From Lama guanicoe (Eukaryota), in the NCBI GenBank assembly GCA_013239625.1, contig MU053559.1, positions 2,648,324 to 2,712,323 on the forward strand: DNA of 64,000 nucleotides, read 5' to 3'. A program made the translations under genes and the position numbers. Positions 40,201 through 43,200 of the stretch are shown one piece after another. Under the pieces are notes generated by a model. The model was not told the DNA's origin and did not search any database. It saw only the letters and a program-made list of their open reading frames with translations. The first letter of the stretch is position 1; every line of letters begins with the position of its first letter.

Positions 40201-43200
40201 CTCAGCACAGACTGCCATTAATGAGCCTGTGTGCAACCTTCATTTGGAACCTCCAGGGAAATCAGGAGACCAAACGCGGAGGGCAGCAGCCATTTCTTTA
40301 AACAATAGTTTTAGCTATCGAATGAGCTCCGACAGACCATGAGCATTTTATAAACAAGCCAAAAATATTCTTAGTATCTTTCTGTTTTCATGAAAAATGT
40401 TAAGAAAGGCCATTCAAAAAAAAAATTTACAGAAATAAAATGAAAATTCAAAGGGTTTATGCCAAAAAGCAAACCAGTCCTCAACAGCCTAACTCATTTG
40501 TTTCTCGGCTGTGAAGCCATGTAGAGGGCGATCAGGCAGTAGATGGTCCCTCCCACCGTCAGCGCCATGGTGGTCATAGGTGGTGCTTCTTTGGAAACCA
40601 AAGGCCGTAATCCCTGAGGGTTATAAGCGTCGGAAGCCCATGCTCCCGCTAATTTCTGCGTGAAGCCACTAAACTTGTAATACATGTCGGCGGGTGTCCG
40701 ACTTCCCGGAGCCGCTGCCTGCGCGACTGCTCCAGAGAAGGCCAGACTTTTTAAAACATTATCCTCATGTTCAAGCTTTTAAGGCATCATCTGCCTATTC
40801 TAGTTAACTTTACTCCCAGGTTACCTCTCCATTCAGATAGGAAAGGAAACTAAATCCTAAATATAGTCAATCCCTACTCAGAAATAATCAACAAGGATCA
40901 CTGTACTGTAGCTGCAATAATATACTACTACCTCAAAGTTTAAGAAATAAAAATATTTCTACAGCACCACAGAGATTTCCTATGTGACACTGTTCTTTCT
41001 CTTGCTACCACTAGACCGCTGGTCTAGTACAGCTTAAAGTAGATCAGGTTATTTTATCACAGCATTTAAAACTTTAAAATTCCACATCTTGGGTTTCCTT
41101 ACATTAAAGGAAACCTATATGTTAAATAGCGAAGACAACAAAAGGTGACTACCTTTTGCTTGTAGATAAAGAAATTTTAGATTATTACGGTTGTTTCTCC
41201 AATTGTATTTACACTTCTTACTAAATCAAGATATTTACAGAAAGATCTTTAAACTCCAAATTTAAAAATTATAAGTTAGTATGTGGAATATGTGTATAAT
41301 TAGTTTTCAAAGTCTCTCATATTTAAATGTTTTTGATGGCTCTTTCCCCCTTTATCTTACTGGGGTGGGGGGATAGTACCGAATGTATGTATAATTTATG
41401 TTTTTTAACCATAATAATAATTTCCCAACCTTATTACTAACAGAAAATATCAGGTTCTTAAGTAATGGAGTATTTCTTTTTAAAACAAAATGAGACAAAT
41501 AATTAAATTTAAATCAGTGAAAACAATTCCAAGGTACCCTTTAACACAAGATAATTAAATAAATGAAAACTTTCTAGAATCTTAAAGAAAGGAACACTTT
41601 CACTATGTGAGTTCTTTCAATTCTTGGAAACAAAATCTGAAGCTATTGTTTAAATTTTATAAAAATTCCTTAGGAAAAGTTGCCAATGTAGTTTTAAAAA
41701 GAATTTATATCACGATGATACAGCAAAAAGTTAGACATTCAAGCTTGAGTTATTAACAACCTACAAGGGTGCTCAATTATAAAATTCCTTCCACTTCTAA
41801 AACCATTTATAGTAAAATAATTTTTCTTGGAATTATAGATCTTTCACATGAGCAAGTATTTGTGCATCAATTGTTTAACCCACTAAAGAACTCAATTTTC
41901 TGTCCTCTAAATTCAAGACTATTACTACTGCATGGAGTGATTTCAAGGCATCTTTCTTAAAGCATTCCCAATAACACAAAATAACAAGTTTGGAATCAAA
42001 TCATTTCAAATGAATTTTCTGCTGAATGGTAAATGAAAACTGATTACATGCATTAGGATATCCAGCTTAGCAAGTTGTTCTTTACAATTATTATTTTTCA
42101 GTAATTATGTTTAAAGAAAATTTAGTTTGGAAACCTACTTTTCACAGAAGTCATTCAGAACGCCCCAATAACCTTCAGGAACAACAAACCATTCACAGTC
42201 ACCTGGACCAATATTTATGTTAACTGAACAGAAGTTGTTATTTTCTTGATGACCTGAAATGTGAAAAGAAAAAAAATCAGCATACCATAAATTTTACAGA
42301 AAAATGCATCTTTAGAAATGAAATCTTAGAAACACTCAATAGAGAAGGCTCCAGTGGTATTCAGTTGTTTATATCAGTACAGCATTTTTGTGTCAAGTTT
42401 TAGAGCTGAGTTTGGTCAACTCCTAACTTACTCATTAAGCGTTTCTGTGGAAAACAATCTAAATCACAGTTAAAAGCTTGGGTTCTAAAGCCAGGGTTCT
42501 CGGCTTAGTCATTATGTAAAACCGGGCAAGTTTGTAAACCTTTCTGACTCAGTTTCTTTATACAAGATTTGATTAAAATAATTCCAATAAATCACTGGGT
42601 TGTTTTGAGGATCAATGAAATAATGACTGCTTTTAGCAGTGCCTAATACATGGTAAGAAATAAATATTAGTTATTATTGATATCAATATCATTACTACTT
42701 CTTCCTTGTGAACTAACCCCCATTTCTCACTAGTCATATTAGGATATGACTAAAGAGACAGGAAGTCTAATTTTCAAACTGTAGCTGCAGGAGTGGTGTC
42801 AACACAAATGGCAGAGCAGGGAACTCTGGGGGGACTTTTCAGAAATTAAAAATATAAAATAAGATGTATCAAAAAATAAAAATCTAGTAAAAACTGTCAG
42901 AAGCAACCTTACCTGAAATCTGGACAACAGTCAAAGGTTTACAGCAACCAAACAAACGTGTGACAACTTAAACATGGCAGGAAATTTTTATGTCACTTTA
43001 ACTTACCTTATGTCCACCTCCATCACTGGTGTGGCAGTGGACTTAAAAATTGTAGTCTGTATTCCTAATATAAGCATCCCTGGTTCTGGAGGGAGCAGAG
43101 TGGACCTTGCTCCCAAAGAATTGTGTTCTTCTGTTTCGACCACACTGTAGTTTCCCCAAAAGACTGATGGAAGGGACTTCTGTTTGTTTCACCTACCTCA

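What the first reader, a model, noticed from the sequence alone, without database searches (positions are those of the whole stretch)
40494..40685. COX7A2L/SCAF1 retrocopy keeps an open 63-aa ORF with a precise in-frame internal deletion
Seen: intact ATG in a good context (cccgccgacATG), no stops or frameshifts, native-looking stop, and the junction ...[10 protein letters not shown]... Known (recalled): parental COX7A2L is about 114 aa, acts as the complex III-IV supercomplex assembly factor, uses its N-terminal extension toward complex III and its COX7A-like C-terminal part in complex IV. Here about 51 codons (roughly residues 38-88, including NKVPELQKFFQK and the VHLK/VYLK region) are missing, while the N-terminus and the transmembrane helix are kept. 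The breakpoints do not match the parental exon boundaries as I recall them. Inference: if expressed, this could be a lineage-specific mitochondrial microprotein that shortens or interferes with supercomplex bridging. The simpler explanation is a young pseudogene whose deletion is in frame by chance (1 in 3).
Basis: partly seen in the sequence, partly recalled or inferred. Interest (0 to 1): 0.7.

Follow-up and report, generated by a model that had tools for sequence, protein, structure and literature searches.

The report
Broken COX7A2L retrocopy inside camelid KDM6A
A reverse-transcribed copy of the mitochondrial gene COX7A2L sits in an intron of a camelid's KDM6A gene; the alpaca record of the same insertion is full length, whereas this copy lacks 150 bases, including a residue reported to be needed for complex IV binding, so it is likely an ordinary pseudogene rather than a new microprotein.

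Summary
The 63-codon ORF is real (40494-40685, minus strand). It lies in a 1.0-kb processed COX7A2L copy with a 10-bp target-site duplication, an L1-type cut site, AATAAA and a short tail. The copy sits in sense orientation in a KDM6A intron inside the JmjC-coding region of a camelid. Against the 113-aa camelid parent, 50 codons are missing (not 51), and the 62 retained residues are identical.

An alpaca protein record (XP_015102752.2) matches this intron flank at 34 of 35 codons and carries the full 113 aa. The deletion therefore most likely arose in genomic DNA after insertion. Codon logic makes it blunt, not a splice and not microhomology-driven. It removes the His73-equivalent and the Pfam COX7a match; in mouse, losing two residues there already blocks complex IV binding and destabilises the protein. 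An open frame is the neutral expectation (64-96% in simulation, times 1/3 for the deletion).

Expression could not be tested. Best reading: processed pseudogene with a later chance in-frame deletion (0.70). One point stays open: zero amino-acid changes could mean the full-length copy was constrained, if the insertion is old. Interest 0.2.

The parts
40743..40752 (-). 5' target-site duplication AAAAAGTCTG, preceded by TTTT (L1-endonuclease-type TTTT/AA site)
   Evidence: identical 10-mer at both ends; the L1 consensus is recalled
40686..40742 (-). 57 nt of COX7A2L-derived 5' leader, CpG-rich (7 CpG)
   Evidence: its in-frame reading equals that of alpaca P0173; origin in the parent's 5' UTR is inferred, as no parent DNA was obtained
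40576..40685 (-). CDS 5' part: parent residues 1-36 plus two bases of Ile37; the exon 1/exon 2 junction (Q24|G25) is joined with no intron
   Evidence: exon boundary inferred from read-through and exon-skip isoforms
40575..40576 (-). Deletion junction: 150 nt missing; new codon AT|G (Met37)
   Evidence: 0 microhomology and no GT/GC donor under any codon choice allowed by the parent protein
40494..40575 (-). CDS 3' part: last base of Arg87, parent residues 88-113 (membrane helix and tail), stop TGA
39762..40493 (-). COX7A2L-derived 3' UTR with AATAAA at 39784-39779 (ATTAAA at 39862)
   Evidence: its start resembles the read-through C-terminus of P0074 (compared by eye)
39757..39761 (-). Short poly(A) remnant (A5, running into the five As of the 3' TSD)
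39747..39756 (-). 3' target-site duplication AAAAAGTCTG
40753..40790 (-). KDM6A intron flank whose in-frame reading matches the N-terminal extension of alpaca XP_015102752.2; the window has TAA at 40781-40779 where the alpaca record has Lys
   Evidence: 34 of 35 codons match, 12 of them wholly outside the insertion
42139..42253 (-). KDM6A exon upstream of the host intron (HQENNN...FCEK; phase-2 donor GTAGGT); the next exon begins about 1.1 kb beyond the 3' TSD
23356..60347 (-). Host gene KDM6A (UTX), 3' half (mapped exons); same strand as the retrocopy
   Evidence: large exon 100% identical to V. pacos, C. dromedarius and C. ferus KDM6A

Best explanation
This is a processed copy of COX7A2L mRNA, likely inserted by L1 machinery, lying in sense orientation in a KDM6A intron of a camelid; it likely lost 150 nt of coding sequence in a later blunt genomic deletion and is likely a non-functional pseudogene whose frame stayed open by chance. 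SHOWN: TSD, TTTT/AA site, AATAAA plus tail, fused exon junction, host gene, 62 of 62 retained residues identical to the parent, a full-length record with the same flank in alpaca. INFERRED: (a) L1 target-primed reverse transcription of a full-length mRNA; (b) deletion afterwards by blunt end joining; (c) no promoter of its own, so the copy is mostly transcribed as part of the KDM6A intron and spliced out; (d) any 63-aa product would lack His75 and the matrix helix, would fail to enter complex IV and would be unstable, like mouse SCAF1-111.
For: Retrocopy hallmarks. Alpaca XP_015102752.2 equals 35 codons of this flank and leader (34 of 35 match) plus the exact 113-aa parent, on a 113.9-Mb contig; camelid KDM6A records lie on 102-121-Mb contigs, the parent record on contigs of at most 71 Mb. 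The junction is neither a splice nor microhomology-based. The deletion removes residues 58-87, mean identity 0.81 across 83 vertebrate homologues with 17 positions at 95% or more, the PF02238 match (57-108 in the parent, none in P0001) and the predicted helix 60-66 plus the first five residues of helix 83-107. His73 is critical for complex IV binding (PMC7246575, passage); SCAF1-111 is very unstable and without relevant function (PMC7314541, passages). Neutral simulation keeps ATG and frame open in 64-96% of runs at 2.0-0.2% divergence. A more diverged camel COX7A2L-like record (P0130, 76% identity, no Pfam match) still reads as one open frame. P0001 is not in the 15-billion-protein collection. 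The two in-frame acceptor candidates below the flank stop are weak (pyrimidine 0.35 and 0.40 against 0.65-0.95 near 10 host exons).
Against: No amino-acid change in 62 codons here or 113 in the alpaca record. Under neutrality this has P about 0.39 and 0.18 at 0.5% divergence, but only 0.14 and 0.03 at 1% (the 113-codon figures are scaled approximations). The very short tail hints at an older insertion. 16 CpGs survive in 249 nt, the densest such stretch in the window. No parent DNA, no dN/dS and no read-level data were obtained, so silence and neutrality are inferred, not shown. Orthology with the alpaca record rests on protein-level identity of the flank, not on alpaca DNA.
Confidence: 0.7

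Rival explanations
1. The full-length copy was a constrained, expressed retrogene (still intact in alpaca), and the deletion in this window's lineage is a loss-of-function event.
For: 113 of 113 residues identical to the parent in alpaca and 62 of 62 here; P about 0.03 or less for 113 codons if the copy's branch has diverged 1% or more; short tail suggests age; CpGs retained; the leader reads the same in both records.
Against: Age is not established: KDM6A is identical in V. pacos, C. dromedarius and C. ferus, so the window's genus is unknown. If the insertion is recent, zero changes are expected (P 0.5 at 0.2%). The alpaca record starts in intron flank, which looks like an automatic gene model rather than a mapped transcript (inference). 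The flank is CpG-poor.
Confidence: 0.15
2. The copy acts on its host: its AATAAA (or its own transcription) causes intronic polyadenylation of KDM6A, giving a truncated product without the last part of the JmjC domain.
For: Sense orientation inside the JmjC-coding region; canonical AATAAA kept; precedent at H13/Mcts2 (PMC13309782, abstract).
Against: No strong acceptor just upstream: the best AG candidates within the copy's leader score 0.55-0.60 and are out of frame. The parent's downstream genomic elements are not copied. None of the 10 camelid KDM6A isoforms mapped ends in this intron. About 75% of retro-derived intronic CpG islands are methylated in human (PMC4122923, passages).
Confidence: 0.06
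3. The deleted copy is translated into a 63-aa mitochondrial microprotein that binds complex III2 through its N-terminus but cannot bridge to complex IV, and so competes with SCAF1.
For: ATG, context, frame and stop are intact; the N-terminal 36 residues and the hydrophobic helix are unchanged; the SCAF1 N-terminus inserts into complex III2 (PMC13461795, passage); SCAF1-111 is found in minor amounts on complex III.
Against: The deletion is secondary and in frame with prior 1/3; no promoter evidence; the exact protein is absent from the collection and no camelid hit of this length appeared among 51 hits of 34-111 aa; the analogous mouse variant is unstable.
Confidence: 0.04
4. The 150-nt gap is an assembly error or a private haplotype, and the species' usual allele is full length as in alpaca.
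For: The only other record of the locus is full length; the junction was never seen in reads.
Against: A clean blunt loss of unique sequence with intact flanks is not a typical assembly error (inference); collapse with the parent would restore sequence rather than delete it.
Confidence: 0.05

Closest known systems
COX7A2L/SCAF1 (COX7RP), camelid parent P0053 (KAB1266754.1, XP_006179242.1); mouse structure chains 7o37_I and 8pw5_I
   Same: Residues 1-36 and 88-113 identical to P0053; two-segment match to 7o37_I.
   Different: Intronless; lacks residues 37-87 including His75, helix 60-66 and over half of PF02238.
Alpaca XP_015102752.2 (P0173), annotated COX7A2-like, 148 aa
   Same: Same flank, TSD and leader at protein level (34 of 35 codons); same retained residues.
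   Different: It is full length and has Lys where the window has a flank stop codon.
L1-made processed pseudogenes and retrocopies (Carelli et al., PMC4772013)
   Same: TSD, tail, fused exons, new locus.
   Different: Nothing qualitative; the functional-retrogene criteria (intact parental ORF, purifying selection, expression) are not met or untested for this copy.
Mouse SCAF1-111 (C57BL/6) and exon-2-skipping COX7A2L isoforms (P0008, P0009)
   Same: Internal in-frame loss that leaves the N-terminus and membrane helix.
   Different: SCAF1-111 is a 2-residue allele of the parent gene; the skip isoforms drop residues 25-68 and keep the His; this copy drops 37-87 and loses it.
Nested intronic retrogenes that alter host polyadenylation (Mcts2/H13; RB1 intron retrocopy)
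   Same: CpG-rich retrocopy in an intron with its own poly(A) signal.
   Different: Those have demonstrated CpG-island promoters and host effects; none is shown here.

Membership tests
L1-mediated processed retrocopy | Parental introns absent | tested here: met
   Q24|G25 contiguous in the window; boundary inferred from isoforms P0008, P0009, P0043, P0048
L1-mediated processed retrocopy | Target-site duplication and TTTT/AA-type site | tested here: met
   10 of 10 identical, preceded by TTTT
L1-mediated processed retrocopy | Poly(A) tail downstream of a poly(A) signal | tested here: met
   AATAAA, 17 nt, then a run of 10 A of which 5 belong to the TSD
L1-mediated processed retrocopy | Located away from the parent locus | tested here: met
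   inside KDM6A; parent record on contigs up to 71 Mb, KDM6A on 102-121 Mb
Retrocopy of an alternatively spliced COX7A2L isoform | Missing segment bounded by splice sites or exon ends | tested here: not met
   deleted segment starts with AA, CA or TA under every allowed codon choice; the alpaca record is full length
Functional protein-coding retrogene | Parental ORF intact | tested here: not met
   50 of 113 codons missing here; met by the alpaca record
Functional protein-coding retrogene | Purifying selection (dN/dS below 1) | tested here: inconclusive
   0 amino-acid changes, but no parent DNA and no age; P 0.69 to 0.02 for 62 codons depending on divergence
Functional protein-coding retrogene | Own transcript or translation | not tested
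   no read-level data obtained; RNA rows hold 0.35-0.43 of sampled words, compatible with parent mRNA alone
Working SCAF1 bridge | N-terminal complex III2-binding part | tested here: met
   residues 1-36 identical; how far the binding region extends was not established
Working SCAF1 bridge | His73-equivalent and COX7a domain for complex IV | tested here: not met
   His75 deleted; no PF02238 match
Working SCAF1 bridge | Transmembrane helix | tested here: met
   same best 19-mer, hydropathy 1.62; helix 38-57 predicted against 83-107 in the parent, both models of low confidence
Nested retrogene driving host intronic polyadenylation (Mcts2/H13 type) | Active, unmethylated intragenic CpG promoter | tested here: inconclusive
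   16 CpG in 249 nt, o/e 0.81; methylation and activity unknown
Nested retrogene driving host intronic polyadenylation (Mcts2/H13 type) | Truncated host transcripts | not testable with these tools
   needs 3'-end sequencing; none of 10 camelid KDM6A isoforms mapped ends in this intron

The most novel reading that the evidence does not exclude
Camelids carry an expressed second SCAF1 gene nested in KDM6A: full length and under selection in alpaca, and converted in this lineage into a 63-aa form that occupies complex III2 without bridging to complex IV, a natural dominant-negative tuner of supercomplex assembly.
Probability: 0.04. Interest if true: 0.75.

Novelty: new member of a known kind. Interest (0 to 1): 0.2.

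Why it matters
Most likely little: one more processed pseudogene. It has modest value as a presence/absence and deletion marker for camelid phylogeny. It is also a caution that the alpaca 148-aa 'COX7A2-like' record appears to be a retrocopy model that starts in KDM6A intron sequence. If the full-length copy proved old and constrained, camelids would have a second SCAF1 gene on the KDM6A chromosome (X, recalled), and the full-length and deleted forms would be a natural experiment on the III2+IV bridge.

Tried and rejected
No whole genome is held for this window. Read-level evidence was not obtained, so expression, the parent mRNA sequence and ORF integrity in other animals stay open.

The run search listed 24 runs. 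14 DNA or unlabelled rows from 8 studies and 4 organism labels hold 0.80-0.87 of 107 sampled words; 6 RNA rows from 3 studies hold 0.35-0.43; 4 rows hold none. None was laid. If 0.43 is a fully assembled parent mRNA, it implies about 2.5% divergence (1.8-3.3%). The host of those runs is unknown, and partial assembly or another genus would give the same share, so I do not use it to date the copy. DNA shares could also come partly from the parent's exons.

Parent DNA was sought in metagenome contigs: 190 pattern hits, none confirmed; 0 hits. Genus was sought through KDM6A (identical in three species) and through exact look-up of 10 of the window's 17 ATG ORFs of 85 aa or more (0 of 10 found). 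Pfam gave no match for P0001. AlphaFold models were of low confidence (mean pLDDT 55.5 and 59.6), so no fold search was run. No complex prediction was run.

Rejected: a spliced-isoform origin and microhomology-mediated deletion; a deletion made during reverse transcription (full-length alpaca record); an in-frame KDM6A-COX7A2L fusion (5 of 20 AG candidates in frame; 3 lie above the flank stop, 2 are weak; the host comparison took the best AG near each exon start and so is biased upward).

Earlier scan findings: none by sequence or by words. Literature: no title or abstract opening on this locus in the listings for COX7A2L+pseudogene (25 of 35 listed), retrocopies+camel+alpaca (2 of 2), COX7A2L+camel (5 of 5) or KDM6A/intron/retrocopy terms (15 of 355). 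Subscription papers and supplements were not seen. PMC10626428 (one passage) and PMC12896496 (passages) added nothing specific.

Full report
Observation. The minus strand of 40494-40685 encodes a stop-free 63-aa ORF, P0001, starting in the context CCCGCCGACATG. It matches mouse Cox7a2l chains 7o37_I and 8pw5_I in two separate segments. Its best full-length hit is camelid COX7A2L, P0053, 113 aa, E 2.6e-30. That record is named for Camelus dromedarius and C. ferus and was seen on 5 contigs of up to 71 Mb. Residues 1-36 and 88-113 are identical to it, so 50 codons (150 nt) are missing, not 51. The junction codon ATG is built from two bases of Ile37 and, by inference, the last base of Arg87.

Anatomy. 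The ORF belongs to a copy spanning 39747-40752. A 10-bp duplication AAAAAGTCTG flanks it, preceded by TTTT on the 5' side; this is the L1-endonuclease-type site (recalled). Inside are a 57-nt leader, the CDS, about 730 nt of 3' UTR, AATAAA at 39784 and a run of 10 A, five of which belong to the duplication. The exon 1/2 boundary is fused; it is inferred at Q24|G25 from read-through and exon-skipping isoforms. This is a processed retrocopy.

Setting. The window holds the 3' half of KDM6A on the same strand. JmjC and KDM6 domains were found, and the large exon is 100% identical to V. pacos, C. dromedarius and C. ferus KDM6A. The exon map puts the copy in an intron within the JmjC-coding region, after the HQENNN...FCEK exon (42253-42139). 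That KDM6A is X-linked, and that this intron separates the first two iron ligands from the third, is recalled. The window is camelid, but its genus could not be fixed.

Key result. The cluster of P0053 has one other member, alpaca XP_015102752.2 (P0173), 148 aa, on a 113.9-Mb contig. Its last 113 residues equal P0053. Its first 35 match the window's in-frame reading upstream of the ATG at 34 of 35 codons, 12 of them lying wholly in intron flank beyond the duplication. The one difference is a TAA in the window where the record has Lys. The simplest reading is that P0173 is this same insertion, full length. The deletion then postdates insertion: it was not made during reverse transcription and does not copy a short isoform. 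This orthology is inferred from protein sequence; I did not see alpaca DNA.

The break. Without parent DNA I enumerated the codons that the parent protein allows. Provided the junction G comes from Arg87, every combination gives 0 bases of microhomology and a deleted segment starting AA, CA or TA. So it is neither a GT/GC-AG splice nor microhomology-mediated; blunt end joining is inferred. Natural exon-2-skipping isoforms drop residues 25-68 instead (P0008, P0009).

What is lost. Across 83 full-length vertebrate homologues of 110-118 aa, residues 58-87 average 0.81 identity to P0053 with 17 positions at 95% or more, including His75. PF02238 covers 57-108 of the parent and is not detected in P0001. 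Low-confidence models show helices 60-66 and 83-107 in the parent and only 38-57 in P0001. Reviews report that the SCAF1 N-terminus inserts into complex III2 and the C-terminus into complex IV (PMC13461795, passages) and that His73 is critical for complex IV binding (PMC7246575, passages). Mouse SCAF1-111, lacking two residues next to that His, cannot bind complex IV, is very unstable and keeps no relevant function (PMC7314541, passages). A 63-aa product would therefore likely be a non-bridging, unstable fragment.

Is the open frame surprising? No. A neutral model with CpG hypermutability keeps ATG and frame in 96% to 64% of runs at 0.2% to 2% divergence, and a random deletion is in frame one time in three. 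A more diverged camel COX7A2L-like record, P0130 (76% identity, no Pfam match), also reads as one open frame. P0001 is not among 15 billion catalogued proteins, and none of 51 hits of 34-111 aa is named as camelid.

Against my reading. There is no amino-acid change in 62 codons here or 113 in alpaca. That is expected if the copy is young (P 0.69 and about 0.50 at 0.2%) but not if it is old (0.14 and about 0.03 at 1%). The short tail hints at age. Sixteen CpGs persist in 249 nt (o/e 0.81 against 0.21 window-wide), which fits youth or lack of methylation. The run search gave RNA rows at 0.35-0.43 and DNA rows at 0.80-0.87 of sampled words. A constrained full-length retrogene disabled in this lineage gets 0.15.

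Effect on the host. The copy brings a poly(A) signal into KDM6A in sense, as at H13/Mcts2 (PMC13309782, abstract). Of 20 AG dinucleotides in the 215 nt above the ATG, 5 are in frame with the upstream phase-2 exon. Three lie above the flank stop, and the other two have pyrimidine fractions of 0.35 and 0.40, against 0.65-0.95 for the best AG near 10 host exon starts. None of the 10 camelid KDM6A isoforms mapped ends in this intron. Most retro-derived intronic CpG islands are methylated in human (PMC4122923, passages), and most robustly expressed retrocopies rely on new or recruited promoters (PMC4772013, passages). I give this 0.06.

Novelty. I found no paper on this locus in the listings, and no earlier scan finding; subscription papers and supplements were not seen. 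The full-length form is already in RefSeq as an alpaca protein model. The bioRxiv paper 10.64898/2026.09.07.749710 (passages) only confirmed SCAF1's general role.

Verdict. Observation confirmed with a size correction. It is a processed COX7A2L copy nested in camelid KDM6A with a likely secondary blunt in-frame deletion, probably a pseudogene (0.70). New member of a known kind; interest 0.2. Expression and selection remain untested.

Noticed in passing
window 40753-40790 (-) and P0173: The alpaca 148-aa 'COX7A2-like' record starts in KDM6A intron flank, so its N-terminal extension is probably an annotation artefact of a retrocopy; the window has a stop at codon 4 of that extension.
   Followed up: yes
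P0130 and P0174 (not in the window): A second, more diverged COX7A2L-like record in C. dromedarius and C. bactrianus, with what looks like a short compensated frameshift (KTKFQRHKS); it keeps a Thr that the 113-aa parent lacks, so it likely predates this copy.
   Followed up: partly
window 28463-28774 (+): Near full-length 7SK RNA match (178 bits), antisense within a KDM6A intron; probably a 7SK pseudogene.
   Followed up: no
window 27795-28034: Two head-to-tail copies of a 120-bp unit, 98% identical, in a KDM6A intron.
   Followed up: no
window 16889-16960 (+), 18568-18639 (+), 62953-63024 (-): tRNA-like matches, likely heads of tRNA-derived SINEs (SINE identity recalled).
   Followed up: no
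window 5576-6223 (+): 215-aa ATG ORF with no Pfam match and no exact record; probably non-coding.
   Followed up: partly
window about 12800-13550 and 44400-46300: A-rich stretches whose translations resemble decayed LINE-1 ORF fragments (resemblance recalled).
   Followed up: no
P0008, P0009, P0013-P0015, P0017, P0020 (not in the window): Short COX7A2L records of 68-77 aa, mostly birds and a gecko; the two I read (P0008, P0009) skip exon 2 and keep the complex IV His, a recurring short isoform unlike this copy.
   Followed up: partly
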